A stretch of DNA of 64,000 bases from an uncultured Bacteroidales bacterium (GTDB taxonomy: Bacteria; Bacteroidota; Bacteroidia; Bacteroidales; ML635J-15), in the NCBI GenBank assembly GCA_964448235.1, contig CAYUWD010000003.1, positions 17,664 to 81,663 of the forward strand, in the 5' to 3' direction. Below the pieces are notes generated by a model that saw nothing but the letters and a program-made list of their open reading frames with translations, was not told where the DNA came from and did no database searches. The stretch's first letter is position 1. Every line of letters begins with the position of its first letter. This document shows, piece after piece, positions 22,339 to 38,299 of the stretch. The translations under genes and the position numbers were made by a program.

Positions 22339-22851
22339 ATGAAATATTTTATTTCTTTAACTTTTGTCTTATTTACTTTGTTAGGATTTGGACAATTAGA
22401 AGTTAATCAATCTGGGATAAACACTTCCTATACAGAAGGAGAACCAGTAATAATACCTGGAACAAACATACTGATGACTCCACCAGAGCATTTTTTGGTA
22501 AGCGAATCTATTCCGGGGTTAATACATCCAGGCTCGTCAACAACAGTACAAGTACAAGAAATTATCGGAACATCATATATTATGATTCAACAAGCTATGA
22601 CACCTGAACATTTTGAAACACAAAATGTAAATTTAATTTCTGAAGAAGAAGTTAAATTAAAAAATGGAATGAATGGTGTTTTATATCTTGTTGGATTTAC
22701 CGTAAAAGGATATGACTATGAAAGGCTTATGCTTTTTGCAGGAGATTATAATAATACTATTTGGATAAATGCAAATTATCCAAAATCTGCAAAATCATTA
22801 TTGCACGATATTTTAGTAGAAAGTTTATTAACCGCACAACACATCAAATAG
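22339..22851 (+). CDS. Hypothetical secreted protein
   Basis: Signal peptide MKYFISLTFVLFTLLGFGQ; 170 aa. The stop lies 2 nt before the start of the next giant gene. Confidence 0.6.
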   Translation: MKYFISLTFVLFTLLGFGQLEVNQSGINTSYTEGEPVIIPGTNILMTPPEHFLVSESIPGLIHPGSSTTVQVQEIIGTSYIMIQQAMTPEHFETQNVNLISEEEVKLKNGMNGVLYLVGFTVKGYDYERLMLFAGDYNNTIWINANYPKSAKSLLHDILVESLLTAQHIK

Positions 22852-22853
22852 AA

Positions 22854-25800
22854 ATGATAAAAAAGTTACTAATATTTTGTTTGTTTCTTGCCATTTGGGG
22901 GATACCGGGAATATTCTCCCAAAATATTTTAGTGCATGAAATACCATATAGCACTCACGATCAGGATATGTGGGGAGCAGGAGACGCATTTAGTCTGGAT
23001 TTTGACTATGATTTATTTAATGTACAGGTAGATGAAAACTTTTCTGAAGGATGGATAGAAGAAATCCTTGGAACACAATGGGGTATAGGTGTTGAAATGG
23101 GAATGTGGATGTTTTTACGTTCTACATTTAGTATGCACGGCTTTACACTCGGTTCTGTTGATGTTGACTATCCTGTCGAAATTACTCTGGATTTTCCCGA
23201 TGATTACACTTTCGACCATGGTGAAACAGTTCCAATTCATTCTTCTTATGAAGTCCTTGATGGTTGGGCTCTTGAAACTCATTTCCCAACTGCCGGTATT
23301 ATTGCCCTTGACTTAGAATATGGTTTTGGATTAAATTTTGACATTATTGTTTGTATGGTTGATTGTGAAACAATTCCAATTATTCCAACAATTAGTATTC
23401 CTGTAGATCCATTATATACTGACCCATTGCCTCACGATTCTATTGCTATATTTTATTTAAACGGAATTACAGGCGATTGTGTATACCCATGCCTTGATGA
23501 AACAACAGGATTGCCAACTATATGCGAAGATGATTTACTTCCAATCGTTATCCCTGATTGGTTTGGAATAGGATTAACTGGAGAAATTGATATCCCATAT
23601 GTTGAAACTGACGATTGGCTTGATACAGACACTCAATGCCTACACGCACACGGACAAGACGAATGGCTTTGGTTTAATCTGAACATTATGGATTTCCTTG
23701 GATTTATTTGTGGTTTTATCCCTCCTCCTGAAGGACCAGCAATCCAAGAAGCTATAGATTTTCTCGAAGGAGGAACAATAGAATATGAAATTATTTCAGG
23801 AGTTAATGCTGTTATTGAATATTTTATTTTACACATGGATCTTCATATGTCAAGTTACATGACTCAGGATTTCTCCTTTTGCCCAACAATATTAGCAACC
23901 TTAGCTTTTGAAACGGACTTACCTTATTCCGAAACAGATCCGGAAAATGGAGATGCTATAATAGCCGAAGGGGTATCAGACACTATTACTTTTGCAATAA
24001 ATAACGACCTAAATATTACTTACCCATGTTATGAATGGGATTCAATGGAAGTATTAAGCGTAACATACAATATTACATCCGGATTTTATAATCACACTTG
24101 GGATTCAATTACTTTTGACTTTATTTTAGAAGCAATTTTCTTTTCTGTATCTATTCCATTTGACGATATTATTCCAGTTGCAGAAATGCCGGAATTTTGT
24201 ATTCCTGAAATAATTGTTGACAATGCCGATTTAGGTATTACTCAAACAATAAATGCTTGCTCACCAGCAATCCCTACTCCTGCTATAAGTATGGAAGAAT
24301 ATATGCCTGTTGGATACCAAGAAAGCTTGTCTAAAGGTGGAGGTTCTAGTGAAAATCAAGCTAAAGATCTCGAATTCTGTTTTCCTACAAACTGTGAACC
24401 ACTAATTTCAGAAACTTTCCCATTAGGATATATTCCACTCACATGGTATGATCAAGAATGGGATTTACAAGGATTTGTACAAGACACTGTATTTTCAGGA
24501 ACTTGGTTATTTCCATTACCTGAGTTAGATATAGAAATTACCGGACAAGATGTTTTATGTTTTGGTGACACAAGCGGTATTGTTTCTGTAACAGCAATAA
24601 ATAGCTCCCCGGACTTCACATGGGAATATTCTTGGGGAACAATTAATACTCATGCTGGACCAACAGACGAAATAACAGTCCCATCAGGATATTATTATGT
24701 TACTTTAACAGATACTTACGGATGTAAAGTTTTTGGAGAAATGAATATTGCTGATGAAAATCCACCTTTATTATCTAATTTATATGCTGACGATGTTCTC
24801 TGTGCAGGAGAACCAACAGGAAATTTATATTCATATGTATCAGGAGGAGTACCTCCATATTCCTATTTATGGGAACCCAGTAATAGCACAGACCCCAATC
24901 CCACAGGAGTATATGCAGGCATGCATGTACTAACAATTACAGATGCTGTAGGTTGTGAACATATTGACTCTGTTTTTATTGACGAACCAGACGCACCAAT
25001 ATCTATGCCTTTTAACGATATCGGACATGTTTCTTGTTATGGATTAAGTGATGGACATATTGATATTGAAATTGATGGTGGAACTCCTCCATATTATTAT
25101 ATTTGGTCAAATGGACAATTAACACAAGATCTTTTAAATATTCCTGCCGGACTATACTCCGGAACAGTAATAGATTCTCATGACTGTCTATTTGAATATG
25201 AATTTGAAGTCACACAACCAGAACCATTAGAATTAACAACATATACTCAAGATGTGCTCTGTTATGGTCAAAATACCGGAACAATTGATCTTGTTGTACA
25301 AGGAGGAACCCCTCCATATGAATATGAATGGAATAATGGTGATGAAACACAAGACCTATTAGGCGTTTTTGCAGGAATCTATATAGTTACTGTTACTGAT
25401 GCTCATGGTTGTATAAATTATACAATGGTTCAAATCGACCAACCTAATTTACCTCTTCATGGAGATATCACTCCTACTCATGTAAGATGTTTTGGAGAAG
25501 GAAATGGAATTGCAGACTTAAATGTATTTGGAGGTACCCCTCCATATTATTTCAGTTGGAGTAACGGAGAAATATCAGAAGATATTTACAACTTGATCCC
25601 TGGTATTTATAGTGTTACTATTAATGATGGCCATGGATGTATTGCCGGAGATACAGTTCAAATATTCCAACCTGACTCACCAATGTTTGGAACAATAACT
25701 GGAAATAATATTACTTGTAATGGAGGGGATGATGGAAATATATATATTGATGTAACCGGAGGAATTCCACCATATCATTATGAATGGAATACCGGAAGCT

Positions 25801-27152
25801 GGCAAGAAGATCTTATTGGTGTAGAAGCAGGCTCTTATTATGTTACTGTTACCGATGAAAATTATTGTCATTACAATATGAATATTGAACTAACAGAGCC
25901 TGAAGAGTTTTATATTCAACCTATGGATAATCCAACAATTTGCTACGGACAAAATGCAGAAATAGGAATTGGAATAATTACAGGTAGCATCCCTCCATAT
26001 ACCATAGAGTGGAGTAACAACGATGTGGGAATGACAACTACTGTCACCCCAACTGAAACTACAACCTATTCTGCAGTTGTTATTGATGCTATGAATTGCA
26101 TTTCCGAAGAAATAGAAGTAACGGTTAAAGTACTTGATTCTATCACAATGAAAGTTTTTGCTTCTGAAGACACTGTATGTCCAGGAGAAATCGTTGACTT
26201 TGATGTTATAATTGAAGGTGGAGGTGTTTCTGGTAATCAAGTTAGAGTAAATGATTCTATTATGGATTTACCTCTTTCAGTTAATGTATTTAACGACACA
26301 ATATTTGAATTTTTAATTTATGACGCTTGTAATTTCGATAGTGTCAAAATAGAATATCCTTTATATACTTATCCTTTACCTCCTGTTGACATTACTGCAG
26401 ACAAAACAAATGGATGTACACCTCTTACTGTTCAGTTTTACGAAAACAGTCAAGACATTGGACAAAGATATATTTGGAATTTTGATGATGGCGATTTTGA
26501 AAATCTTTCATTTGATAAAAACCCAATTCATACTTTTTATAATGCTAGAACTTATCACGTTGGTCTCGAAATCATTTCAGCAGAACAGTGTAGCATTGAT
26601 ACAACTATTGCTATTACTGTATTTCCTATCCCAACAGCTGAGTTTAGAGCAAATGAAACCAATGTTACAATGGCAACACCTGTAGTATATTTTACAAATT
26701 ATACTGAAGGAGGATTCTTTTATAATTGGAATTTTGGAGATGGAAGTGCAAGTACTGCTCCTAATCCAAGTCATACTTTTTCTCTACCAGGAACTTATCA
26801 CGTAAATATGGTAACAACTTCTCTTTATGGTTGTGTTGATTCTACTGGTGTTGATATTTTTGTCTCTAATGAATTAGCAGTATATGCCCCTACAGCATTT
26901 ACTCCAAATCATGATGAACTCAATGAAACATTTAAAGTTATTGTAGATGGTGTAGATTCTGAAACATATTCATTATCTATTTATAATCGATGGGGAGAAA
27001 CCGTATTCTTCTCTGAAAACTACGAAGAAGAATGGAATGGTAGACGAGAAGAAGAAGAATGCCCAGAAGGTGTTTATGTATGGATACTTACTTTCGTTGA
27101 CCTATACGGAAATGAACATTATGAAACAGGACAGGTTACTCTTATAAGATAA
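22854..27152 (+). CDS. Giant T9SS cargo: unknown N-terminal region, SprB-type repeats, two PKD-like domains, type-B C-terminal sorting domain
   Basis: Start placed at the ATG at 22854 (MIKKLLIFCLFLAIWGIPGIFSQ signal peptide). SprB repeats have the form C(F/Y/A)G...G......GG.PPY.Y.W. PKD-like NFDDGD and NFGDGS...HTF..PGTY segments. CTD: FTPNHDELNETFKV...YNRWGETVF...GVYVWILT...GQVTLIR. Confidence 0.85.
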   Translation: MIKKLLIFCLFLAIWGIPGIFSQNILVHEIPYSTHDQDMWGAGDAFSLDFDYDLFNVQVDENFSEGWIEEILGTQWGIGVEMGMWMFLRSTFSMHGFTLGSVDVDYPVEITLDFPDDYTFDHGETVPIHSSYEVLDGWALETHFPTAGIIALDLEYGFGLNFDIIVCMVDCETIPIIPTISIPVDPLYTDPLPHDSIAIFYLNGITGDCVYPCLDETTGLPTICEDDLLPIVIPDWFGIGLTGEIDIPYVETDDWLDTDTQCLHAHGQDEWLWFNLNIMDFLGFICGFIPPPEGPAIQEAIDFLEGGTIEYEIISGVNAVIEYFILHMDLHMSSYMTQDFSFCPTILATLAFETDLPYSETDPENGDAIIAEGVSDTITFAINNDLNITYPCYEWDSMEVLSVTYNITSGFYNHTWDSITFDFILEAIFFSVSIPFDDIIPVAEMPEFCIPEIIVDNADLGITQTINACSPAIPTPAISMEEYMPVGYQESLSKGGGSSENQAKDLEFCFPTNCEPLISETFPLGYIPLTWYDQEWDLQGFVQDTVFSGTWLFPLPELDIEITGQDVLCFGDTSGIVSVTAINSSPDFTWEYSWGTINTHAGPTDEITVPSGYYYVTLTDTYGCKVFGEMNIADENPPLLSNLYADDVLCAGEPTGNLYSYVSGGVPPYSYLWEPSNSTDPNPTGVYAGMHVLTITDAVGCEHIDSVFIDEPDAPISMPFNDIGHVSCYGLSDGHIDIEIDGGTPPYYYIWSNGQLTQDLLNIPAGLYSGTVIDSHDCLFEYEFEVTQPEPLELTTYTQDVLCYGQNTGTIDLVVQGGTPPYEYEWNNGDETQDLLGVFAGIYIVTVTDAHGCINYTMVQIDQPNLPLHGDITPTHVRCFGEGNGIADLNVFGGTPPYYFSWSNGEISEDIYNLIPGIYSVTINDGHGCIAGDTVQIFQPDSPMFGTITGNNITCNGGDDGNIYIDVTGGIPPYHYEWNTGSWQEDLIGVEAGSYYVTVTDENYCHYNMNIELTEPEEFYIQPMDNPTICYGQNAEIGIGIITGSIPPYTIEWSNNDVGMTTTVTPTETTTYSAVVIDAMNCISEEIEVTVKVLDSITMKVFASEDTVCPGEIVDFDVIIEGGGVSGNQVRVNDSIMDLPLSVNVFNDTIFEFLIYDACNFDSVKIEYPLYTYPLPPVDITADKTNGCTPLTVQFYENSQDIGQRYIWNFDDGDFENLSFDKNPIHTFYNARTYHVGLEIISAEQCSIDTTIAITVFPIPTAEFRANETNVTMATPVVYFTNYTEGGFFYNWNFGDGSASTAPNPSHTFSLPGTYHVNMVTTSLYGCVDSTGVDIFVSNELAVYAPTAFTPNHDELNETFKVIVDGVDSETYSLSIYNRWGETVFFSENYEEEWNGRREEEECPEGVYVWILTFVDLYGNEHYETGQVTLIR
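24525..26132 (+). repeat. About seven tandem ~76-aa SprB-type coding repeats
   Basis: Successive units start DIEITGQDVLCFGD, LYADDVLCAGE, IGHVSCYGL, YTQDVLCYGQ, PTHVRCFGE, GNNITCNGG and NPTICYGQ. Each has GG(T/V/I)PPY and a late conserved Cys. Confidence 0.75.
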
Positions 27153-27174: not shown

Positions 27175-27221
27175 AAAAAAACACTATAATTAAACGTAAA
27201 AGAAAATTATAGTGTTTTTTT
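27175..27221 (+). terminator. Rho-independent terminator
   Basis: acactataatt / aattatagtgt 11-bp stem, flanked by an A6 run upstream and a T6 run downstream. Confidence 0.8.
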
Positions 27222-27223
27222 AT

Positions 27224-27231
27224 TAATTTTG
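27224..27231 (+). promoter_or_regulatory. Candidate -7 box (TAATTTTG) for the PGK-like gene
   Basis: TAnnTTTG match 20 nt upstream of the ATG at 27251. Confidence 0.35.
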
Positions 27232-27250: not shown

Positions 27251-28543
27251 ATGAAAAATAATTTACCACTCATCCAATATGCTAATCTAAAAGACAAAGT
27301 AGTTTTAGTCAGAGTAGATCATAATGTTGTTAAATCAGGATTAATTCATGACCCTTATAGAATAGATGCTACAATAGGAACACTATTTCACATATTAGCA
27401 AAAGGAGGAAAGATTATTCTCATGACACATGTGGGACGTCCAAAAAACAAAAATACAGGTGAAATAACAATAGATAATAAAACATCTGTAATGCCTATTG
27501 TAAAATATCTAAGCAATAAATTACATATCAATATTGAAGTTCCTGAATTTTACTCACATGAGAATAAAGGTTATCTTAGTATTGAAACAAATATTAACCA
27601 CTCAATAAAAAAGCTTAAAAATAGCGAAATTGATGCTATTTACTTACCAAATACCAGATGGTTTATGGGAGAAGAAGCTGAAGCTGAAGAAATGGATAGG
27701 TTTGCTAACCAACTTGCTGGATTAGCAGATATCTACATTAATGATGCTTTTGGAAGTTGGCAACCTCATGCTTCAACAATCGGAATAAACAAGTATCTTC
27801 CTTCGTATGCTGGATTTTTAATGCAAAAGGAAATAAAGAATCTGGAAAGGCTATACAATGCTGATAAACCTTTTCTTGCTGTTGTTGCCGGTAGTAAATT
27901 TGACACAAAAATTGAACCGCTGTATGCTTTACTGAAAAAAGCAGATAATCTTATATTGGGGGGAGTAATGTATAATGCATATTTATGTGCAAAATATGGA
28001 ATTTCTATTAAAGGTGTAGGTGAAAAAGATATTAAACTTGCCGGTGAATTCGTTGAATTTGCAAAAAAATATCCAAATAAGATTGTAGAGCTACCATTTA
28101 TTGTAGAATCTGATGTCTTAGGTTCAAAAGAAACCGGAAAATATCGGGTTCATGATATCAGAAAACTAAAATCGGGATATTCTTTAAATTATATTCTTGA
28201 TGTATCCCCAGAATCTTTTGAAGATGATCATGTAAAGGACGTATTTCATAGTGCCAAAACGGTATTCGTTAATGCTGTAATGGGATTTACACCACATTTT
28301 AATGATGGAACAATCGCTTTAGATACTTTAATTGATGAGAATCCTGAAGCTGTAAAATTATATGGAGGAGGAGATACAATGCAGGAGTTAAAACGACTTT
28401 TACCAGGATTATATATCATGGCACTGGATAGCCCAAAATACTATATTTTTACAGGTGGTGGAGCCGTATTAAAAGCAATCGAACAGAATACTCATCTTGG
28501 AATTGAACCTATTGCGGAATTAATAAAAAGAAAAGGAGACTAA
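27251..28543 (+). CDS. Divergent phosphoglycerate-kinase-family protein (PGK-like paralog with altered substrate-site motif)
   Basis: PGK-like VLVRVDHNVV...DPYRI...ILMTHVGRPK, AGSKFDTKI, GGGDT and FTGGGAVL. The canonical FGTAHR is replaced by FGSWQPH, and GVFE by GFTPHF. Confidence 0.7.
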   Translation: MKNNLPLIQYANLKDKVVLVRVDHNVVKSGLIHDPYRIDATIGTLFHILAKGGKIILMTHVGRPKNKNTGEITIDNKTSVMPIVKYLSNKLHINIEVPEFYSHENKGYLSIETNINHSIKKLKNSEIDAIYLPNTRWFMGEEAEAEEMDRFANQLAGLADIYINDAFGSWQPHASTIGINKYLPSYAGFLMQKEIKNLERLYNADKPFLAVVAGSKFDTKIEPLYALLKKADNLILGGVMYNAYLCAKYGISIKGVGEKDIKLAGEFVEFAKKYPNKIVELPFIVESDVLGSKETGKYRVHDIRKLKSGYSLNYILDVSPESFEDDHVKDVFHSAKTVFVNAVMGFTPHFNDGTIALDTLIDENPEAVKLYGGGDTMQELKRLLPGLYIMALDSPKYYIFTGGGAVLKAIEQNTHLGIEPIAELIKRKGD

Positions 28544-28577
28544 AAGCCTCCTTTTTTCTTTATTCTCTCAACATTCG

Positions 28578-29552
28578 TTATTTTATAGTAATGCTCTTAG
28601 TAACTTCACCATTAACAGTTTGAATCTTAACAAAATAATTTGCTTTTCCCAGTTTACTAATATCAATTACTTCTTTTGAGCTATTTGCTTCTGCAGAGTA
28701 AACAACCTTACCCAACATATCTACTATAGAAACCGCTTCTAGACCTTCAGCCTCAACAGTTATCTGATGTGAAGCAGGATTAGGATAAATCTTTACATCT
28801 TCTTGTAATTTTGAATTTATCCCGGTACCATTATCTATTGTTATATAATCATATTTTGTTAATTCATCTGCTCCTCCTTCATTTGACACTACTAATGTAA
28901 CATCATACATACCTTCTTCTGCATAGGTAACAGTTGGATTTTGCTGATCACTAGTTGGAGGAGTTCCTCCTTCAAATGCCCAAGCCCATCCTGTTGGATC
29001 GTTTGTGCTTTGATCTGTAAACTCCACTTCTGTCCCTGTCGTTGTATTTGTAGTATTTGCAGAAAATTCGGCTATTGGAGCAGGGGGTAATACAACAATA
29101 CTTAAAGAAGTATCATCTGTCATTTGTGACATTTCAACAGGATTTCCAAGCACATCAATATATGGAGTAATATACAATGTTAACTGATATTCTCCAACTT
29201 CTGTAGGAGTACCTGTAACCTGAACGCAGTAACGTGTAATAGGATCAGTAACTTCAAACATCTCCTGACTTTTACACCAATCTAATCCTGGAGGTAAATT
29301 CTCAACATCATCAACTCTAATCTGATAAATGACAGGCAAACCTTCATATTCAGCAGGAGGAATAACCGTTACTGTCTCATCATAATACTCATCGACTGTT
29401 GCTGTTGGCATTATTAATGGGCAAATTTCACCTGGATTATTAATCTCTTCACATGTCGGATCTGGAGTACATGCCGGGTCACAAATTTGTGCATTTAATT
29501 GCAACACAAACAAAGTTGCAATAGACATAATAATTAATGTAATTTTTTTCAT
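28578..29552 (-). CDS. Secreted PKD-domain protein with a T9SS type-A C-terminal sorting domain
   Basis: Signal peptide. Cys-rich N-terminus (CDPACTPDPTCEEINNPGEIC). PKD-like FSANTT...VEFTDQS...GMYDVTLVVSN. CTD: KIYPNPASHQITVEAEG...ANYFVKIQTVNGEVTKSITIK. Confidence 0.8.
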   Translation of the reverse strand: MKKITLIIMSIATLFVLQLNAQICDPACTPDPTCEEINNPGEICPLIMPTATVDEYYDETVTVIPPAEYEGLPVIYQIRVDDVENLPPGLDWCKSQEMFEVTDPITRYCVQVTGTPTEVGEYQLTLYITPYIDVLGNPVEMSQMTDDTSLSIVVLPPAPIAEFSANTTNTTTGTEVEFTDQSTNDPTGWAWAFEGGTPPTSDQQNPTVTYAEEGMYDVTLVVSNEGGADELTKYDYITIDNGTGINSKLQEDVKIYPNPASHQITVEAEGLEAVSIVDMLGKVVYSAEANSSKEVIDISKLGKANYFVKIQTVNGEVTKSITIK

Positions 29553-29576
29553 TTTGATTAATATTTGGTTAAACTT

Positions 29577-32045
29577 TTAAATATTTGCACTTAATACAAT
29601 TTCAAATCGTCTTGGAGCATGCATATCTCCTGGTCTTCCCACATATACACGATTAAGTATGTTTTTAACAATAAATGAGGCTCGTAAGTTTTCACTAAAT
29701 TTAAATCCAAAGCGCAAATCAATATTCAAATATTGTCTATTTGCATTTTCTATTCTATAATCCCAATACCCTGGCAAAATCATCCCACTAAATAGCTGAT
29801 AAAAAGCATAATCTCTAGAATTAACTGTTTCTGGATCTCTTTCATCACAAAATAATCTGTCAACGTTGTCCATTGCGCTGCGCCATATAATATTTGCTCC
29901 AAAAGTAATTCTTTTAGTCTCTAGATTTAAATCCGCTTTAATTGTATGTTTAATTCTATATTTTAATATTGGTGACAGACTAGAGGCTGTTGTATCTAAA
30001 CCTTGTCGAGATACAGGATTACTATAGGTATATGCCAACATGCCTGTAAAATAATGTTTTCCGATTTTACCACCAATCGTACCAGATAAATCTAGTCCAG
30101 TTATTCTTACATCACCATAATTTTGCGATTGAAATCCAATTGTTGCAGGAACAGTATCTCCATCTTGCCAAGGCATAAATGTAACCGGATTAAATACTCC
30201 AAAACTAAACTCCATCATATCATTAATATCCTGATTATATATTGCTAAATCAGCAAAACCTCTCCACTTTCCCAATTTATATGCTTGTTTAACACCAACT
30301 TCTGCACTCCAACTACTTTCTGAATTTAATCTAGGATTTGGTAAAATATTTACCATTCCCAAAGATGTAGCAGTATACTTTTCAGCAATTGAAGGAAATC
30401 GGTATCCTTGACCAAAAGATGCCCTTAAAAATGTTCTTTCTGCAACTTGATAATTAGCACCTGCTCTAAATACTGGTCTTATCGGTATCTCAACATAATC
30501 TTCTCCAAATTCAACATTAAATGCAGATTCTGTTTGTGTTGAATCTAATAGGAAATACTCTCCTCTCATCCCCAAATTGACTTTTAACCTACCAAATCTA
30601 GCATCTATCTGTGTATATCCTGATATATTTGTGCTATAATGATCTCCAAACAAATTTGACTCAACAGTACTTGGTGCATATACTGCTCCTGCTGTAAGAT
30701 TCCACCTTTCAGCAATAACTGTTTGATATTGATATTCAACATAATAACTATGTGCAACACTATTTTTTGAAGTATCTTCAGGCATCACGTTTTCTGTAAT
30801 AAAATATCTTGTGCGTAAACTATATTTTGAACCATTTGGTTTATAATAATATATAAATGGATCAATATTCATTCTATAGCCTTGTGTTGCCACACTTGAT
30901 CCCAAAGTTGGATTAGCAAGATATGGTGTTGTGTCTGATTCCCACATAAAAAAATCACTCATATCTAATGCCATAAAATTAGAATTAACACCCAGAGCTA
31001 ATCCATTTATTTTTTTACTCCTATACCTCACATTTGCATTAAACCTACTTCTTTTTTCATATTCTAACTCTCTATATCCTTCATCTATAAAATGATTTCC
31101 TCCTAACGAAAGATCAAGATTTTCGAACTTTTGACTATGTGAAAAGCTAAACCCTCCATACATAGGATTTCTAACAAAATAGAATATTGGTTCTCTTAGA
31201 GGTACTTTAATTTTACTATTTTCTCCACTAAAAAATTCGTTCCCCCACCAGCGAGCTCTTTCATCCTTTGGAGATCCATAAATACCATAAAAATAAGTAA
31301 CCTTTGTTTTGGGTTTATCTGTAGGATATGCCGACCTAACATTTATTACTCCTCCAATAGCAGACGAACCAAACAAAGCCGAACTTGCGCCTTTTACCAC
31401 CTCCACTTGAGAAATGTTTTCTACAGGGATATAATTCCACTTAACATCACCACAATCAGCAGACATAATTGGCAAATCGTCCATTAAAATAACAACTCTA
31501 CTTCCTGCACCATAACTCCAGCCAGTACTAGAACGAATACTTGGCTGCTTATCATTTATGTCTACACCAGCAACTTGATTTATAGCATCTGACATATTAA
31601 AAGAGTTATTATTTTCTATTGTTGTTGGCTTTATTACTTCCATAGAAACAGTAACTTCTGATAATTTTTGCTCATATTTACCAGCACTTACAACAACTTC
31701 ATCAATAATTTCTGCTTTTTGATTAATTTCAACATCTAAAACTATTTGATTCCCAACTCTTAATTCGACTGTCTTTAAAACCTCTTCATATCCAATATAA
31801 ACAAATCTCACATTGTAAGTACCTGGATATAATGCTATTTTATAATTACCATCAAAATCCGTAGTTGTTCCTAATTGAGTTTTATCTGTTAAAAGCTCAT
31901 TTGCATTATCAATAATAATATTGACACCATATAAAGCCTCCTTATTCACTTTGTCTATGACTTTTCCGTTTAATATAACCGTTTGGGAAATTAAAGAAAA
32001 TTGTACAAGCAAGGCAATAATTAATAAAAGAAAACATTTCCTCAT
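29577..32045 (-). CDS. TonB-dependent outer-membrane receptor with an N-terminal carboxypeptidase-regulatory-like domain
   Basis: Start set at MRKCFLLLIIALLVQFSLISQ (ATG at 32045); a -7 box sits 29 nt upstream, inside the longer ORF-track version. LNGKVIDK...GTTTDFDGNYKI. Plug with VEVVKGASSALFGSSAIGGVINV. Barrel ends FEIVLSANI. Confidence 0.85.
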   Translation of the reverse strand: MRKCFLLLIIALLVQFSLISQTVILNGKVIDKVNKEALYGVNIIIDNANELLTDKTQLGTTTDFDGNYKIALYPGTYNVRFVYIGYEEVLKTVELRVGNQIVLDVEINQKAEIIDEVVVSAGKYEQKLSEVTVSMEVIKPTTIENNNSFNMSDAINQVAGVDINDKQPSIRSSTGWSYGAGSRVVILMDDLPIMSADCGDVKWNYIPVENISQVEVVKGASSALFGSSAIGGVINVRSAYPTDKPKTKVTYFYGIYGSPKDERARWWGNEFFSGENSKIKVPLREPIFYFVRNPMYGGFSFSHSQKFENLDLSLGGNHFIDEGYRELEYEKRSRFNANVRYRSKKINGLALGVNSNFMALDMSDFFMWESDTTPYLANPTLGSSVATQGYRMNIDPFIYYYKPNGSKYSLRTRYFITENVMPEDTSKNSVAHSYYVEYQYQTVIAERWNLTAGAVYAPSTVESNLFGDHYSTNISGYTQIDARFGRLKVNLGMRGEYFLLDSTQTESAFNVEFGEDYVEIPIRPVFRAGANYQVAERTFLRASFGQGYRFPSIAEKYTATSLGMVNILPNPRLNSESSWSAEVGVKQAYKLGKWRGFADLAIYNQDINDMMEFSFGVFNPVTFMPWQDGDTVPATIGFQSQNYGDVRITGLDLSGTIGGKIGKHYFTGMLAYTYSNPVSRQGLDTTASSLSPILKYRIKHTIKADLNLETKRITFGANIIWRSAMDNVDRLFCDERDPETVNSRDYAFYQLFSGMILPGYWDYRIENANRQYLNIDLRFGFKFSENLRASFIVKNILNRVYVGRPGDMHAPRRFEIVLSANI

Positions 32046-32073
32046 ACTAATAAATATATTGATTATTTCAAAA

Positions 32074-32081
32074 CAAATGTA
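32074..32081 (-). promoter_or_regulatory. Candidate -7 box (TACATTTG on the minus strand) for the TonB-dependent receptor
   Basis: Plus-strand caaatgta, 29 nt upstream of the ATG at 32045. Confidence 0.35.
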
Positions 32082-32215
32082 TATATATTGTTTGTTATAT
32101 AACAATTTTTATTGCCTGTTTTAGTATTATTTTTGCCATACATTGTATAAATACGTATAAATACGCATTACAATTTATACTAAGAAAAAGCGTAAAAAAA
32201 TAAATACAAATACAC

Positions 32216-34603
32216 TTAAAGTCTAGTTCTTATAGCCTTTAAGCTAGGAAGTTCTTTACCTTCAATATATTCTAACAAAGCCCCTCCGGCAGTTGAGACA
32301 TAACTTATTTTGTGGGCTAGCCCATATTTGTTTAATGCAGCAATACTATCACCTCCTCCAACAAGAGAAAATGCCCCAAAATCTGTAGCTCTGGATACCG
32401 CAAGAGCAATTTTAATTGTTCCATTACAAAAATGATCCATTTCAAAAACTCCCATAGGACCATTCCATAAAAGAGTATTTGATTTTTCTATTATTTTTGC
32501 AAATGTTTCAGCAGTTTTTATTCCTATATCCAATCCCATCCAAGATTTTGGAATCTCATTTATTTTACAATGTTTTATTCTGGCATTATTATCAAATTTG
32601 TCTGCAATAATACAATCTATTGGCAAATATAACTTAACATCTGTTTTCATTGCTTGCTCTAAAATATCTTTTGCAACAGGAATATAATCTTCTTCAACAA
32701 GAGATTCTCCAATATTACCTCCCATAGCTTTAATAAAAGTAAAAGCAATTCCACCACCAATTATTAGGTTATCAACCTTTTCCATCAAAGCTCGAATTAT
32801 ATCTATTTTTGTGGACACTTTTGATCCTCCTATTATTGCAGTAAAGGGTTTCTCTCCTTTATAAAGAACCCGATTAATATTATTTATTTCACTTTCCACA
32901 AGATATCCAAGCATTTTATCTTCCGGAAAATATTTTGCAATCATATAAGTAGATGCATGAGCACGATGTGCGGTTCCAAACGCATTCATAATATATACAT
33001 CCCCTAATTTTGCAAGTTTTGCTGCAAACTCCTCATCATTTTCTGTTTCCATTGAGTTAAACCTCAAATTTTCTAATATCATTACTTCTCCAGGTTGAAG
33101 ACTTTTTGACAATTTATCTGCTTCAGCACCAACACAATCACTGGCAAATTTTACTTCTGTTTCAAGTATTGTCGACAAATAAGGAACAATATGTTTAACA
33201 GAGAATTTTTCAACAACTTTTCCTTTTGGTCTTCCAATATGAGTCATCAATATTACAGCACCACCATCGGTAAGTATTTTTCTTATTGTTGGAATAGCTG
33301 TAACTATTCTTGTATTATCAACAATTTCAAATTTATCGTTTAATGGAACATTAAAGTCTACACGCATCAACACCTTTTTGCCATAAAAATTATAATCATC
33401 TATACTAAATGATTCAATAATTGCTTTTATAGAAGGCAAATTTTTCTTTTCGAAATACTCAAGCAAAGCTCCTCCTGCAGAACTTATATACGATATTTTA
33501 TGTGCAAGACTATATTTATTAATTGCAGCCGTTGTATCACCACCTCCTACAACTGAATAAAGGCCTTTATCTGTTGCTCTTGCAATTGACAAGGCCAATT
33601 TTAGTGTTCCATAAGCAAAATGTGACATTTCATATACCCCAAGAGGGCCATCCCATAATAACGTTTTAGAATTTTCTACAATTTCAGCAAATAAATCAAC
33701 GGTTTTTATTCCAATATCAAGAGCCATCCACTCATCAGGGATTTCAGAAAACTCACAATGTTCTATATTTGCATCATTGCCATTTTTATCTGCAATGATA
33801 CAATCCACAGGTAATTGTATATTCACATTAAATTTTTCTGCGTTTTCTAAAATTCTCTTTGCAACAGAAACATACTCATCTTCCACCAATGAATTACCCA
33901 CATTATATCCTTTTGCCTTAGCAAATGTATAGGCAATTCCTCCTCCAATAAGCAAATTATCTATTTTAGGCATCAATGCTTCAACAATTCCAATCTTAGT
34001 AGTAACCTTATCTCCCCCTATCATTAGAGTAAATGGAGATTCTGAGCCTTTAACTAACTTATCAAGTTTTTTAATTTCACTTTCAAAAACATATCCAAAC
34101 ATTTTATCGTAAGGAAAGTACTTTGCTATAGCAGAAGTCGAAGAATGATTTCTATGTGCTGTTCCAAAAGAGTTATTTACATAACAATCTCCAAGTTTAG
34201 ACAACTTTTCTGCAAAAATTTCATCAGCCTCAAGTTCTCCTTTATAAAATCGAAGGTTCTCAAGTAACATAATATCTCCTGGTTTTAAGTCTTGAGCCTT
34301 CTTATATGTTTCTTCTGATAGAGGATCTTCGCAAAAATTTATTTTGCGTCCTATGAGTTTTTCTACATATGGTAAAATATTTTTTAATGATCTCTTTTCT
34401 ATGTACCTACCTTTGGGTCGCCCCCAATGAGTTAATAATATAATTGATCCATTTTCAGATAAGATTTTTTGAATTGTAGGTAATGATAGCCTTATTCTTG
34501 TATCATCAACCAAATCATATTCATCACTTGTTATTGGAATATTAAAATCCACTCTCAATAAAACCCTTTTGCTATCAAAATTATAAGAATCTAAGTTATT
34601 CAT
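32216..34603 (-). CDS. pgk: Tandem-duplicated phosphoglycerate kinase (two complete PGK modules fused in one ORF)
   Basis: aa 1-398 and 399-795 each carry RVDFN(I/V)P, TH(W/I)GRPKG, ENLRF, FGTAHR, GG(D/S)KV(T/S)TKI, LW(D/N)GP(L/M)GV(Y/F)EM, GGGD and AGGALLEY. The junction ...LPSIKAIIES|FSIDDYNFYGKK... (nt 33409/33410) has no stop and no Met. Confidence 0.9.
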   Translation of the reverse strand: MNNLDSYNFDSKRVLLRVDFNIPITSDEYDLVDDTRIRLSLPTIQKILSENGSIILLTHWGRPKGRYIEKRSLKNILPYVEKLIGRKINFCEDPLSEETYKKAQDLKPGDIMLLENLRFYKGELEADEIFAEKLSKLGDCYVNNSFGTAHRNHSSTSAIAKYFPYDKMFGYVFESEIKKLDKLVKGSESPFTLMIGGDKVTTKIGIVEALMPKIDNLLIGGGIAYTFAKAKGYNVGNSLVEDEYVSVAKRILENAEKFNVNIQLPVDCIIADKNGNDANIEHCEFSEIPDEWMALDIGIKTVDLFAEIVENSKTLLWDGPLGVYEMSHFAYGTLKLALSIARATDKGLYSVVGGGDTTAAINKYSLAHKISYISSAGGALLEYFEKKNLPSIKAIIESFSIDDYNFYGKKVLMRVDFNVPLNDKFEIVDNTRIVTAIPTIRKILTDGGAVILMTHIGRPKGKVVEKFSVKHIVPYLSTILETEVKFASDCVGAEADKLSKSLQPGEVMILENLRFNSMETENDEEFAAKLAKLGDVYIMNAFGTAHRAHASTYMIAKYFPEDKMLGYLVESEINNINRVLYKGEKPFTAIIGGSKVSTKIDIIRALMEKVDNLIIGGGIAFTFIKAMGGNIGESLVEEDYIPVAKDILEQAMKTDVKLYLPIDCIIADKFDNNARIKHCKINEIPKSWMGLDIGIKTAETFAKIIEKSNTLLWNGPMGVFEMDHFCNGTIKIALAVSRATDFGAFSLVGGGDSIAALNKYGLAHKISYVSTAGGALLEYIEGKELPSLKAIRTRL

Positions 34604-37109: not shown

Positions 37110-37575
37110 ATTTATTATTCTAACAACATTTCTAATCACATCTTGTTTATTTTCATGTGATAATAATAAAGTGTTTGAAAATTATGTAGAAATAGAAAAC
37201 AACATTTGGTCAAACAAAAACATAATCAATTTTGAATTTGAAATAAATGATACAAACTCATTACACAATGTATTCATAAACATTCGTCATGCTAGTTTAT
37301 ATCAATATAATAACCTATGGATATTTATCGAATCTTCGGCTCCAAATGGAACAAAAGAAACAGACACTGTTGAATGTGTCCTTGTAGATAAAAACAACAA
37401 GTGGATTGGTGATGGATTAGGCGATATTTGGGATGTTCAAATTCCCTGGAAAACTAATGTGAGATTTAGTCATCAAGGTTTGTACCGTGTAAAATTCGAA
37501 CAAGCAATGAGAGTAGAATTACTACCCGGAATTATGGATATGGGATTAAGAGTTGAAAAGGTTCCGTCAAAATAA
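37099..37575 (+). CDS. gldH: Gliding motility lipoprotein GldH
   Basis: Start set at the ATG at 37099 (MKNKFIILTTFLITSCLFSCDNNKVFENY, lipoprotein signal). About 158 aa with YNNLW and the C-terminal GIMDMGLRVEK pattern typical of GldH. Overlaps the PSP1 gene by 11 nt. Confidence 0.75.
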   Translation: MKNKFIILTTFLITSCLFSCDNNKVFENYVEIENNIWSNKNIINFEFEINDTNSLHNVFINIRHASLYQYNNLWIFIESSAPNGTKETDTVECVLVDKNNKWIGDGLGDIWDVQIPWKTNVRFSHQGLYRVKFEQAMRVELLPGIMDMGLRVEKVPSK

Positions 37576-37582
37576 CACCAAG

Positions 37583-38299
37583 ATGTCACAAAAAAACAAA
37601 CTGTCAAAATTTGCAGAAAATAAAACATTTCCTCATTTCTTCGAACCTGAGTTACATTATTCAATGCATACTGATTATGAATTAAAATCAAAATGGAAAA
37701 GTGACTTTTTTAAAAACGATAATCCTATAATTCTCGAAATAGGATGTGGCAAAGGAGAATATGCCGTTGAACTTGCACAACAAAATTTAAACATTAATTA
37801 TATTGGAATAGATATTAAAGGAGCTAGAATGTGGCGTGGAGCTAAAGACTCTTTTACCATGAGTCTCAAAAACATAGCTTTTATTCGAACTCGTGTTGAG
37901 TTTACTCCATTGTGCTTTTCAAAAAACGAAGTTAATGAAATATGGATTACATTTCCAGACCCACAACTTGGTCCTAAAAAAAGAATTAAAAAACGTCTTA
38001 CTTCATCCCTATTTTTATCTAAATATCAAAACTTTCTTGTTAATAATGGCATTATACACCTTAAAACAGATGATAACACTCTTTATGAATATACAAAAGA
38101 AGTTCTTTTATTAAATAATATAGAAATCATAAAAGATATTTATGATCTATATAATTCTGATTTCTATACAGGAATTATGAAAGTAAAGACACATTATGAA
38201 AAAATATGGACAAAAAAAGAAAGGACTATAAAATATTTGAAATTTAGATTACCATCCAATTTAAAATTAATTGAACCTATTATTGAAAATGACGAATAG
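37583..38299 (+). CDS. trmB: tRNA (guanine-N7)-methyltransferase
   Basis: KLSKFAENKTFPHFFEP, ILEIGCGKGEY and WITFPDPQ motifs. Start chosen at the ATG at 37583, after the gldH stop at 37575. Confidence 0.9.
   Translation: MSQKNKLSKFAENKTFPHFFEPELHYSMHTDYELKSKWKSDFFKNDNPIILEIGCGKGEYAVELAQQNLNINYIGIDIKGARMWRGAKDSFTMSLKNIAFIRTRVEFTPLCFSKNEVNEIWITFPDPQLGPKKRIKKRLTSSLFLSKYQNFLVNNGIIHLKTDDNTLYEYTKEVLLLNNIEIIKDIYDLYNSDFYTGIMKVKTHYEKIWTKKERTIKYLKFRLPSNLKLIEPIIENDE

What the first reader, a model, noticed from the sequence alone, without database searches (positions are those of the whole stretch)
27251..28543. Third PGK-family paralog with a rewritten 3-phosphoglycerate-binding motif
This 430-aa protein is recognisably PGK-fold. 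It has VLVRVDHNVV, D.YRI, THVGRPK, AGSKFDTKI, GGGDT and TGGGAVL. However, the near-invariant FGTAHR(A)HAS segment is FGSWQPHAS, so the Arg that contacts the 3-PG phosphate is absent. The hinge-proximal GP.GVFE is replaced by VMGFTPHF. It also carries insertions absent from the neighbouring canonical modules, for example NKNTGEITIDNKTS and EFYSHENKGYLSIETNINHSIKKLKNSE. This pattern, with the nucleotide lobe broadly kept and the acceptor site remodelled, is what a kinase with a new phospho-acceptor would look like. The gene has its own candidate promoter box and terminator-like hairpin.
Basis: partly seen in the sequence, partly recalled or inferred. Interest (0 to 1): 0.6.

Follow-up and report, generated by a model that had tools for sequence, protein, structure and literature searches.

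The report
PGK4-type non-canonical phosphoglycerate kinase
This gene encodes an intact member of a very strongly conserved, biochemically untested second kind of phosphoglycerate kinase (called PGK4 in algae and plants); some gut and sediment Bacteroidales keep it as their only such enzyme, so it probably still does the glycolytic reaction with a rebuilt cofactor pocket.

Summary
Window 27251-28543(+) encodes a 430-aa PGK-fold protein (PF00162 283 bits; AlphaFold pLDDT 92.8). It reads FGSWQPHAS where canonical PGK reads FGTAHRAHAS, and NAVMGFTPHF where it reads NGPxGVFE.

It is not a decaying paralog. It belongs to a deep, well-separated clade found in at least 595 species genomes, mostly uncultured Bacteroidales. 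The clade also occurs in Desulfobacterota, green algae and streptophyte plants, at 52-55% identity with the same signature. A 2020 paper named this clade PGK4 and gave no function.

- Six of seven 3-PG ligands are kept, and a few clade members carry Arg again at position 170.
- The nucleoside pocket is the part most rewritten, while the phosphate and Mg ligands are kept.
- In 9 of 51 paralog-bearing Bacteroidales genomes, including a whole genus, it is the only PGK-family gene. GAPDH is present in 11 of 12 such genomes.
- It evolves more slowly than the neighbouring canonical double PGK.

Best reading: it is an active 1,3-BPG/3-PG phosphotransferase that can replace PGK. Its phosphoryl partner (ATP, another nucleotide, or PPi/polyP) is untested.

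The parts
27176..27222 (+). Inverted repeat (aaaaaaacactataatt ... aattatagtgttttttt) just after the stop of the upstream SprB-like gene. It is a likely terminator that isolates the PGK-like gene from upstream transcription.
   Evidence: Read directly from the sequence. The upstream ORF ends at 27152.
27224..27231 (+). Candidate Bacteroidetes-type -7 promoter box, TAATTTTG (consensus TAnnTTTG, recalled from memory), about 20 nt upstream of the ATG.
   Evidence: Sequence. The sigma-70 scan found nothing better than chance, as expected for Bacteroidota. This is a consensus match only.
27251..28543 (+). CDS of the 430-aa PGK4-type non-canonical phosphoglycerate kinase (P0001).
27311..27331 (+). 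RVDHNVV (residues 21-27). It keeps Asp23 and Asn25, the ligands of the 3-PG 2-OH. Phe24 is replaced by His and the final Pro by Val; both changes are clade-invariant.
27428..27487 (+). THVGRPK, which keeps His62 and Arg65 (human numbering) of the basic patch, followed by the clade-specific insert NKNTGEITIDNKTS (residues 66-79).
27641..27664 (+). YLPNTRWF (residues 131-138). Arg136 corresponds to the phosphate ligand Arg122. The canonical Glu of LEN is Pro here, and the canonical Phe after the Arg is Trp137.
   Evidence: P133 against canonical E (96%), W137 against canonical F (94%).
27749..27775 (+). FGSWQPHAS (residues 167-175). It is one residue shorter than FGTAHRAHAS, with His169 replaced by Trp170 and Arg170 by Gln171.
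   Evidence: canonical H 99% and R 98%.
27887..27913 (+). AGSKFDTKI (residues 213-221). The catalytic and alpha-phosphate lysines Lys216 and Lys220 (human Lys215 and Lys219) are kept. The first Gly of the canonical GGxK is Ala.
27959..27982 (+). GGVMYNAY (residues 237-244), replacing GGGxAxTF. The Gly238 position that contacts the base is Val.
   Evidence: Residue roles are from PMC2441801.
28271..28300 (+). NAVMGFTPHF (residues 341-350), replacing NGPxGVFE. Asn336 and Gly340 are kept. Gly337 is Ala, Pro338 is Val, Val341 is Phe, and Phe342-Glu343 are deleted.
   Evidence: canonical G 99%, P 92%, E 98%.
28364..28414 (+). GGGDT, the phosphate and Mg-binding loop, is kept. It is followed by the clade-specific insert LKRLLPGLYIM.
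28448..28465 (+). FTGGGA (residues 400-405). The hinge and phosphate loop TGGG is kept. The canonical Ser392 is Phe.
   Evidence: F400 against canonical S (98%).
28531..28555 (.). GC-containing hairpin flanked by A- and T-runs. It overlaps the stop codon and lies between two convergent genes, so it is a likely bidirectional terminator.
32216..34603 (-). Fused double canonical PGK (795 aa; both modules carry FGTAHR.H.S and GP.GV[FY]E). In related genomes it lies directly upstream of the PGK4-type gene on the same strand. Here the two genes are separated by a TonB-dependent receptor gene and a T9SS cargo gene.

Best explanation
The gene encodes a catalytically competent PGK-family phosphotransferase of the non-canonical PGK4 clade.

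It folds as a two-lobed PGK. The N-lobe still binds 3-phosphoglycerate/1,3-bisphosphoglycerate through Asp23, Asn25, Arg38, His62, Arg65 and Arg122. Gln171 and Trp170 stand where Arg170 and His169 stand in canonical PGK. The C-lobe keeps everything that handles the transferred phosphate and the Mg-diphosphate: Lys215, Lys219, Asn336, GGGD-T and TGGG. So hinge-closure phosphoryl transfer to and from the C1 carboxylate of 3-PG is the most likely chemistry. In vivo the protein can serve as the cell's PGK.

What differs from housekeeping PGK is the pocket that holds the nucleoside part of the phosphoryl partner, together with one phosphate-gripping arginine. I infer that this gives a different cofactor preference or different kinetics or regulation.
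- Shown here: the fold, the kept and lost residues, clade membership, the distribution, the sole-PGK genomes, and the slower evolution.
- Inferred: the activity on 3-PG/1,3-BPG.
- Unknown: the identity of the partner. My odds are about 45% an adenine nucleotide, 15% another nucleotide and 10-12% PPi/polyP.
For: 1. Fold and catalytic residues. PF00162 scores 283 bits. The AlphaFold model has pLDDT 92.8 and pTM 0.88. All top Foldseek hits are PGKs, with TM 0.77-0.86. Positions conserved identically in 98 clade members and 125 canonical modules include D23, N25, R37, H60, R63, R136, K216, K220, N341, G372-374 and T401-G404.

2. Sole PGK. In an even sample of 301 genomes of the order, 51 carry the gene. 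Nine of those 51 have no canonical PGK, against 1 of the 250 genomes without the gene (Fisher p=5e-7).
- A protein-level search of 12 such genomes finds only this gene, and its signature is unchanged there.
- GAPDH is present in 11 of the 12.
- In family f73 the gene is in 22 of 23 genomes. In genus g73 all 6 genomes with any PGK hit have only this one.

3. Constraint. Across 231 pairs of genomes that carry both genes, this protein averages 80% identity against 71% for either module of the canonical double PGK. It is the more conserved of the two in 98-99% of pairs.

4. Partners.
- It lies directly downstream of the canonical double PGK in 20 of 94 loci, with a median gap of 57 bp.
- Algal clade members lie next to GAPDH and an MFS transporter.

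5. Arg170 is not uniformly lost. FGSWR[VA]HAS occurs in two clade members.

6. Published PGK structures show that nucleoside binding relies on a non-specific hydrophobic clamp and that the sugar hydrogen bonds are dispensable (PMC2441801). A rebuilt pocket is therefore compatible with activity.
Against: - No enzyme assay exists for any member of the clade. No paper giving a function was found.
- Glu343, reported as essential for domain closure in human PGK (cited in PMC3900376), is deleted. Arg170, one of three ligands of the 3-phosphate, is Gln.
- Most carriers (42 of 51 Bacteroidales genomes, and all plants) also keep a canonical PGK. That argues for a non-redundant role rather than plain PGK activity.
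- The sole-PGK genomes are draft MAGs (91-98% complete), so some absences could be assembly gaps.
- Two new Trp residues beside the phosphate site could signal a bulkier ligand.
Confidence: 0.62

Rival explanations
1. The acceptor is the same but the partner differs. The enzyme interconverts 1,3-BPG and 3-PG, and its phosphoryl partner is not an adenine nucleotide. Candidates are GDP/GTP (as in Entamoeba histolytica PGK, EC 2.7.2.10), Pi/PPi, or polyphosphate (the orphan activity EC 2.7.4.17). This overlaps the best explanation on the acceptor and differs only on the C-lobe ligand.
For: The nucleoside-contact positions are the ones most rewritten. The phosphate and Mg ligands are invariant (residue roles from PMC2441801).
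- Changed or lost: Ala214, Gly238, Gly312-region, Pro338, Val341 and Glu343.

Carriers are mostly anaerobes (rumen, gut, digesters, sediments). From general knowledge, PPi-linked glycolysis is common in such organisms.

There is a precedent for a PGK with non-adenine preference in an anaerobe that uses PPi-dependent glycolysis (PMC7729029).

Retention beside a canonical PGK in most genomes and in plants fits a non-redundant cofactor.
Against: - There is no direct evidence.
- PGK's base clamp is non-specific, so a rebuilt pocket need not change specificity.
- The hydrophobic and aromatic residues kept at the clamp (Phe/Tyr346, Val256) still look suited to a base.
- I could not obtain model coordinates to test whether the pocket is occluded.
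- No paper reporting a PPi-dependent PGK was found.
Confidence: 0.25
2. One reading: a kinase with a new phospho-acceptor. This would be some other carboxylate or phospho-sugar acid bound in a remodelled N-lobe. One variant is transfer from 1,3-BPG to a sugar phosphate, for example hexose-1,6-bisphosphate synthesis for the neighbouring phosphohexomutase.
For: - Arg170 is Gln, His169 is Trp and Phe123 is Trp. An insert follows the His62-Arg65 loop.
- Trp residues often stack on sugars (general knowledge).
- A PMM/PGM-type phosphohexomutase lies directly downstream on the same strand in 17 of 94 loci. Such mutases need a hexose-1,6-bisphosphate activator (general knowledge).
- The protein coexists with canonical PGK in most carriers.
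Against: - Six of seven 3-PG ligands are invariant across a clade that spans bacteria to plants.
- Arg reappears at position 170 in some members.
- The protein is the only PGK-family gene in lineages that keep GAPDH. With a new acceptor, those lineages would have no enzyme for 1,3-BPG.
- Algal members neighbour GAPDH.
Confidence: 0.1
3. A non-catalytic or regulatory PGK-like protein, for example a partner or sensor that binds 3-PG and modulates the fused double PGK.
For: - It is frequently adjacent to the double PGK.
- All 19 genomes with three PGK modules carry this gene.
- Glu343 and Arg170, both implicated in domain closure, are lost.
Against: - Every residue that touches the transferred phosphate is invariant.
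- The gene persists alone where the canonical PGK is lost.
- It also occurs with single canonical PGKs and in plants that have no double PGK.
Confidence: 0.03

Closest known systems
PGK4 (PGK4A/PGK4B) non-canonical PGK-like subfamily of green algae and streptophytes (Mol Biol Evol 2020, PMC7826186)
   Same: - Named Klebsormidium nitens, Sphagnum, Ceratodon, Adiantum, Ginkgo and Mesotaenium proteins are 52-55% identical to the window protein over about 420 residues. They carry the same signature: RVDHNVV, LPNTRWF, FGSWQPHAS, AGxKYDTK, GGVxYNxY, NAVMGxxPxF and FTGGG.
- Algal members on eukaryotic contigs sit next to GAPDH and an MFS transporter, as the paper describes for PGK4A.
- All fall in one clade apart from canonical PGK.
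- The function is unknown in both cases.
   Different: - The paper describes only eukaryotic members and proposes an arsenic-detoxification link. The Bacteroidales genes have no ars neighbours. They sit beside canonical PGK and a phosphohexomutase, lack the transit-peptide-like N-extensions, and are not fused to a TrmB-like domain.
- I could not compare against the paper's own labelled sequences.
Canonical phosphoglycerate kinase, EC 2.7.2.3 (e.g. T. maritima 1VPE, G. stearothermophilus 1PHP, human PGK1)
   Same: - It has the same two-lobe fold (TM 0.77-0.86).
- It has the same catalytic and phosphate-binding residues and most of the 3-PG basic patch.
- It probably catalyses the same reaction.
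   Different: - Identity is only 25-36%.
- A long branch separates the two clades (0.63+0.54 and 0.73+0.50 substitutions per site, SH-aLRT 100).
- Arg170, His169, Glu343, Pro338 and Gly238 are lost.
- There are three clade-specific inserts.
- No NCBIfam equivalog reaches its cut-off (206 bits against a cut-off of 883).
Entamoeba histolytica GTP-preferring PGK (EC 2.7.2.10)
   Same: It is a PGK with altered phosphoryl-partner preference in an anaerobe that uses PPi-linked glycolysis (PMC7729029). This makes it a functional precedent for a rebuilt nucleotide pocket.
   Different: The Entamoeba enzyme is described as having a canonical structure. I could not test its specificity determinants here. 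There is no evidence that the window protein prefers GTP.
Chlamydomonas PGK3 (arsenate-sensitivity phenotype, PMC7826186)
   Same: It is a non-canonical PGK paralog kept beside the housekeeping enzyme and linked to a GAPDH gene.
   Different: According to the paper it is a different subfamily, related to actinobacterial, chlamydial and deinococcal PGKs. A Deinococcus PGK falls among the canonical sequences in my tree.

Membership tests
PGK superfamily (Pfam PF00162) | Profile match above the gathering score over the full domain | tested here: met
   283.2 bits against a cut-off of 27, covering profile positions 2-377 of 379.
PGK superfamily (Pfam PF00162) | Two-lobed PGK fold | tested here: met
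   The AlphaFold2 model has pLDDT 92.8 and pTM 0.88. The top 50 Foldseek PDB hits are all PGKs, with probability 1.00 and TM 0.69-0.86.
PGK superfamily (Pfam PF00162) | Phosphoryl-transfer residues: Arg38, Lys215, Lys219, Asn336, Asp374/Thr375, and the GGG and TGGG loops | tested here: met
   All are conserved in 98 clade members and 125 canonical modules (alignments).
Canonical PGK, EC 2.7.2.3 | Complete 3-PG basic patch (His62, Arg65, Arg122, Arg170) | tested here: not met
   Arg170 is Gln171 and His169 is Trp170. The other three residues are present.
Canonical PGK, EC 2.7.2.3 | Nucleoside pocket and ribose ligands (Gly238, Pro338, Val341, Glu343; motifs GGG and NGPxGVFE) | tested here: not met
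   The protein reads GGV and NAVMGF--TP, and Glu343 is deleted. Residue roles are from PMC2441801.
Canonical PGK, EC 2.7.2.3 | Curated equivalog model reaches its cut-off | tested here: not met
   The only NCBIfam hit is PRK13962, at 205.9 bits against a cut-off of 883. The neighbouring double PGK scores 943.7.
Canonical PGK, EC 2.7.2.3 | Catalyses 1,3-BPG + ADP = 3-PG + ATP | not testable with these tools
   This needs an enzyme assay. Indirect support: it is the sole PGK-family gene in GAPDH-containing genomes.
PGK4 subfamily (PMC7826186) | Clade separate from canonical PGK that contains Mamiellophyceae and early streptophyte (K. nitens) homologs | tested here: met
   The trees give one clade with SH-aLRT 100. 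Named K. nitens and other streptophyte proteins share 52-55% identity and the full signature.
PGK4 subfamily (PMC7826186) | Algal members adjacent to GAPDH3 and/or ArsJ-like MFS transporter genes | tested here: met
   L103-L105 carry PGK-like, GAPDH and MFS genes on eukaryotic contigs. L106-L107 carry an MFS gene adjacent to the PGK-like gene, with a chlorophyll a/b-binding gene nearby. The Bacteroidales loci themselves have no such neighbours.
PGK4 subfamily (PMC7826186) | Identity with the sequences the paper itself labels PGK4A/PGK4B (e.g. rice LOC_Os10g30550, the PGK-TrmB fusion) | not tested
   No labelled sequence was at hand. No PF00162+PF02390 fusion appeared among the 120 listed hits.
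GTP-dependent PGK, EC 2.7.2.10 | Guanine-nucleotide preference and its determinant residues | not testable with these tools
   The paper on the determinants was not in the library. Only the review's statement was available.

The most novel reading that the evidence does not exclude
PGK4-type enzymes catalyse the PGK step with a phosphoryl partner that is not an adenine nucleotide. The boldest version is Pi/PPi or polyphosphate (the orphan EC 2.7.4.17), giving 1,3-BPG + Pi = 3-PG + PPi. This would be a substrate-level source of PPi for the PPi-dependent glycolysis of anaerobes. It would explain three things: why the phosphate and Mg ligands are invariant while the nucleoside pocket is rebuilt, why the enzyme is kept beside ATP-dependent PGK from Bacteroidales to plants, and why it can be the only PGK in some streamlined anaerobes.
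Probability: 0.1. Interest if true: 0.9.

Novelty: new variant of a known kind. Interest (0 to 1): 0.62.

Why it matters
PGK is treated as a functionally uniform, single-copy glycolytic enzyme. This finding shows a second, deep PGK lineage:
- It is 52-55% identical between Bacteroidales and mosses, ferns and charophytes.
- It has a fixed, different set of substrate-contact residues.
- It evolves more slowly than the canonical enzyme in the same genomes.
- It is the only PGK in some lineages.

Databases annotate it simply as 'phosphoglycerate kinase', and nobody has assayed it.

If it is an ordinary PGK, then Arg170 and Glu343, taken as near-essential from eukaryotic work, are dispensable. If its partner is different, a step of central carbon metabolism in many gut, rumen and sediment anaerobes, and a conserved plant enzyme, is mis-modelled in metabolic reconstructions.

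The question can be settled directly with a recombinant protein and a coupled assay.

Tried and rejected
- Mis-alignment or chance: rejected. Two independent HMMER alignments and MAFFT alignments agree, and the changes are fixed in hundreds of sequences.
- Decaying duplicate of the neighbouring double PGK: rejected. The protein does not group with the double-PGK modules and is more conserved than they are.
- A Bacteroidales-only invention: rejected. The clade also holds Desulfobacterota, WOR-3, Spirochaetales-labelled, algal and plant sequences. Within Bacteroidota, no genome other than the window's own among 400 sampled across the phylum carries the gene.
- Arsenic-resistance context in bacteria: none of the 25 most recurrent neighbour clusters was identified as an ars gene, though most were not annotated.
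- Pocket geometry: structure prediction returns no coordinates, so I could not test whether Val238 or Ile/Val312 occlude the base pocket.
- Taxonomic placement of genomes labelled Spirochaetota, Leptospirales, Cloacimonadota or Lentisphaerae: the genome search gives no kinship for genomes reached through loci. Horizontal transfer and mis-binning therefore remain unresolved.
- Literature: searches for a PPi-dependent PGK, for bacterial PGK paralogs, and for any characterisation of PGK4 or Os10g30550 found nothing beyond PMC7826186.
- Yeast Arg168 mutant data, which I recall showing that this Arg is not essential for catalysis, could not be retrieved. I do not use it as evidence.
Full report
**1. 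What is there**

Window 27251-28543(+) is a clean 430-codon ORF.

The protein matches Pfam PGK over the whole domain at 283 bits. The two modules of the 795-aa fused double PGK at 32216-34603(-) score 438 and 507 bits. These three modules are the only PGK-family sequences in the 3.68-Mb, 98.6%-complete genome.

In NCBIfam the protein reaches only 206 bits on PRK13962, whose cut-off is 883. The double PGK scores 944.

An AlphaFold2 model built on 58 aligned sequences is confident (pLDDT 92.8, pTM 0.88). Its 50 best Foldseek matches in the PDB are all PGKs (TM 0.69-0.86).

The gene looks monocistronic here:
- An inverted repeat follows the upstream SprB-like gene.
- A TAATTTTG box lies about 20 nt before the ATG.
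- A hairpin with a T-run overlaps the stop codon, facing a convergent T9SS-cargo gene.

**2. Residue-level reading**

I use human PGK1 numbering, assigned by motif. Residue roles come from PMC7729029, PMC2441801 and PMC3900376.

HMMER alignments to 1VPE and 1PHP agree with MAFFT alignments.

Kept residues:
- Asp23 and Asn25 (in RVDHNV).
- Arg38 (in DPYRI).
- His62 and Arg65 (in THVGRP).
- Arg122 (in PNTRW).
- Lys215 and Lys219 (in AGSKFDTKI).
- Asn336 and Gly340.
- GGGDT and TGGG.

Changed residues:
- The FGTAHRAHAS block is one residue shorter and reads FGSWQPHAS, so His169 becomes Trp and Arg170 becomes Gln.
- The Glu of LEN becomes Pro.
- The Phe after Arg122 becomes Trp.
- GGG becomes GGV.
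- NGPxGVFE becomes NAVMGF--TP. Gly337 becomes Ala, Pro338 becomes Val, Val341 becomes Phe, and Phe342-Glu343 are deleted.
- Trp335 becomes Val, Gly316 becomes Ala/Ser, Gly212 becomes Ala, and Ser392 becomes Phe.

I compared 98 clade members with 125 canonical modules. Every one of these changes hits a position that is 85-99% conserved in canonical PGK and at least 90% conserved, but different, in the clade.

So the acceptor site loses one of its seven ligands. The nucleoside (base and ribose) pocket is largely rewritten. The phosphate and Mg machinery is untouched.

**3. It is a large, old, tightly constrained clade**

The word-indexed search returned 120 listed homologs at 72% identity or more, all annotated merely 'phosphoglycerate kinase'.

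The exhaustive representative search shows a gap between clade members (266-498 bits) and canonical PGKs. The best canonical matches score 229 and 199 bits (two fused double PGKs), and single-module PGKs score 171 bits or less.

Trees place the clade on its own side of a long branch: 0.63+0.54 and 0.73+0.50 substitutions per site, SH-aLRT 100. All canonical PGKs, including both modules of the neighbouring double PGK, sit on the other side. It is therefore not a recent duplicate of its neighbour.

Nearly all are uncultured Bacteroidales or 'Marinilabiliales' MAGs from rumen, horse and chicken gut, digesters and sediments. The nearest relative is 94% identical, from Marinilabiliales bacterium BM703.

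**4. The PGK4 link**

PMC7826186 describes non-canonical 'PGK4' proteins:
- PGK4A lies next to ArsJ and/or GAPDH3 in Mamiellophyceae and is also present in Klebsormidium nitens.
- PGK4B is a PGK-like plus TrmB-like fusion in land plants.
- The paper gives no function for either.

What I found:
- Two representative clusters, 46-50% identical to the window protein, lie on eukaryotic contigs. These carry Fcf1, ubiquitin hydrolase and chlorophyll a/b-binding genes, and one contig is 1.16 Mb long. The PGK-like genes there sit next to GAPDH and an MFS transporter. They carry the same signature.
- A search from one of them recovered named proteins of K. nitens, Sphagnum, Ceratodon, Adiantum, Ginkgo and Mesotaenium. 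These are 52-55% identical to the window protein over about 420 residues and carry the complete signature.
- Desulfobacterota, WOR-3 and Spirochaetales-labelled proteins belong to the clade too.
- Two Desulfatiglandaceae-type members read FGSWR[VA]HAS, with Arg back at position 170.

I conclude that the window protein is a bacterial member of the PGK4 clade. I could not compare it with the paper's own labelled sequences.

**5. Distribution and what it says about function**

In an even sample of 301 genomes of the order at 90% completeness or better, 51 carry the gene. These span 35 of 199 genera.

Combining this with the PF00162 scan of the same genomes, the 51 carriers divide as follows:
- 19 carry a double PGK plus this gene.
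- 23 carry a single canonical PGK plus this gene.
- 9 carry only this gene.

Among the 250 genomes without the gene, only one lacks a canonical PGK (Fisher p=5e-7).

Further checks on the 'only this gene' genomes:
- A protein-level search of 12 such genomes finds a single hit each, at 58-72% identity.
- The signature is unchanged in them.
- 11 of the 12 have phosphorylating GAPDH.

Within family f73 the gene is in 22 of 23 genomes. In genus g73, all six genomes with any PGK hit have only this one. These genomes are 1.5-2.5 Mb and up to 99% complete.

The loss of canonical pgk is therefore lineage-wide and tolerated only where this gene exists. That is hard to explain unless this protein handles 1,3-BPG/3-PG.

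In 231 genome pairs that carry both genes, this protein is more conserved (mean 80% identity) than either canonical module (71%). This holds in 98-99% of pairs.

All 19 three-module genomes carry this gene. This suggests that the canonical gene became free to fuse, drift or disappear once this enzyme was present.

Outside the order, no genome other than the window's own among 400 sampled across the phylum has the gene.

**6. Neighbourhood**

Across 94 loci the recurrent neighbours are:
- The double PGK directly upstream on the same strand (20 loci, median gap 57 bp).
- A PMM/PGM-type phosphohexomutase directly downstream on the same strand (17 loci).
- A giant SprB-like protein upstream (13 loci, as in this window).

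In this window the block holB-PSP1-gldH-trmB-ATL / double PGK is intact. The PGK4-type gene, however, has been separated from the double PGK by a TonB-dependent receptor gene and a T9SS cargo gene, and it is inverted.

**7. Interpretation**

Best reading (0.62): this is an active phosphotransferase on 1,3-BPG/3-PG that can act as the cell's PGK. Its phosphoryl-partner pocket is rebuilt and its phosphate grip is weakened. The partner is untested.

The case for a non-adenine partner (about 0.25, of which PPi/polyP is about 0.10) rests on two things. The pattern is 'phosphate ligands kept, nucleoside ligands replaced'. And the enzyme is kept alongside canonical PGK from bacteria to plants.

It keeps some support from the two new Trp residues and the downstream phosphohexomutase.

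A non-catalytic role is unlikely (about 0.03).

**8. Limits**

- No assay exists for any clade member.
- All bacterial carriers seen are MAGs.
- The taxonomic labels of some non-Bacteroidota carriers could not be checked.

Noticed in passing
window 32216-34603 (-): Fused double canonical PGK (795 aa). In related species the N-terminal module is reduced to the C-domain only, giving proteins of about 640-650 aa that match profile positions 171-365 plus a full PGK. All 19 sampled genomes with three PGK modules also carry the PGK4-type gene, and both canonical modules evolve faster than it does.
   Followed up: partly
window 37553-38299 (+); L004 1713-2408: A TrmB-type methyltransferase gene (PF02390) lies in the conserved block next to the double PGK: holB-PSP1-gldH-trmB-ATL, diverging from the PGK genes. 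It is about 9 kb from the PGK4-type gene here, about 3 kb from the double PGK in L004, and present in 11 of 94 loci. Land-plant PGK4B is reported as a fusion of a PGK-like domain with a TrmB-like (PF02390) domain. This may be a coincidence of synteny or a real functional link.
   Followed up: no
L004 9390-10727; L045 5446-6804 (17 of 94 loci): A PMM/PGM-type alpha-phosphohexomutase lies directly downstream of the PGK4-type gene on the same strand. It falls below every NCBIfam equivalog cut-off. The resulting array is pgk-pgk / PGK4 / mutase.
   Followed up: partly
L005/L006 8001-15067 (bacterium P3): In this rumen MAG the PGK4-type gene sits 7 bp upstream of the nqrA-F operon (Na+-translocating NADH:quinone reductase). 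It diverges from an ADP-forming acetyl-CoA synthetase-type gene.
   Followed up: no
genomes G349 and G348 (reached through L099 and L094): A MAG labelled Cloacimonadota carries two PGK4-type copies and no canonical PGK. A MAG labelled Leptospirales carries only the PGK4-type gene. Several carriers at about 70% identity are labelled Spirochaetota, Lentisphaerae or Delongbacteria. This could be horizontal transfer or mis-binning.
   Followed up: partly
L101 125-3092: A distant clade member (P0122, 45% identity) lies on a contig with an Rpr2-type RNase P subunit gene, which suggests an archaeal host. It is preceded, 30 bp upstream, by a 417-aa protein with no family match.
   Followed up: no
window 22761-27152 (+) and 28578-32105 (-): The PGK4-type gene is flanked by a 1463-aa SprB/CHU_C-type gliding or T9SS protein upstream. 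Downstream lies a convergent unit of a TonB-dependent receptor and a PKD/T9SS-sorting-domain protein. The SprB-like neighbour recurs in 13 related loci.
   Followed up: partly
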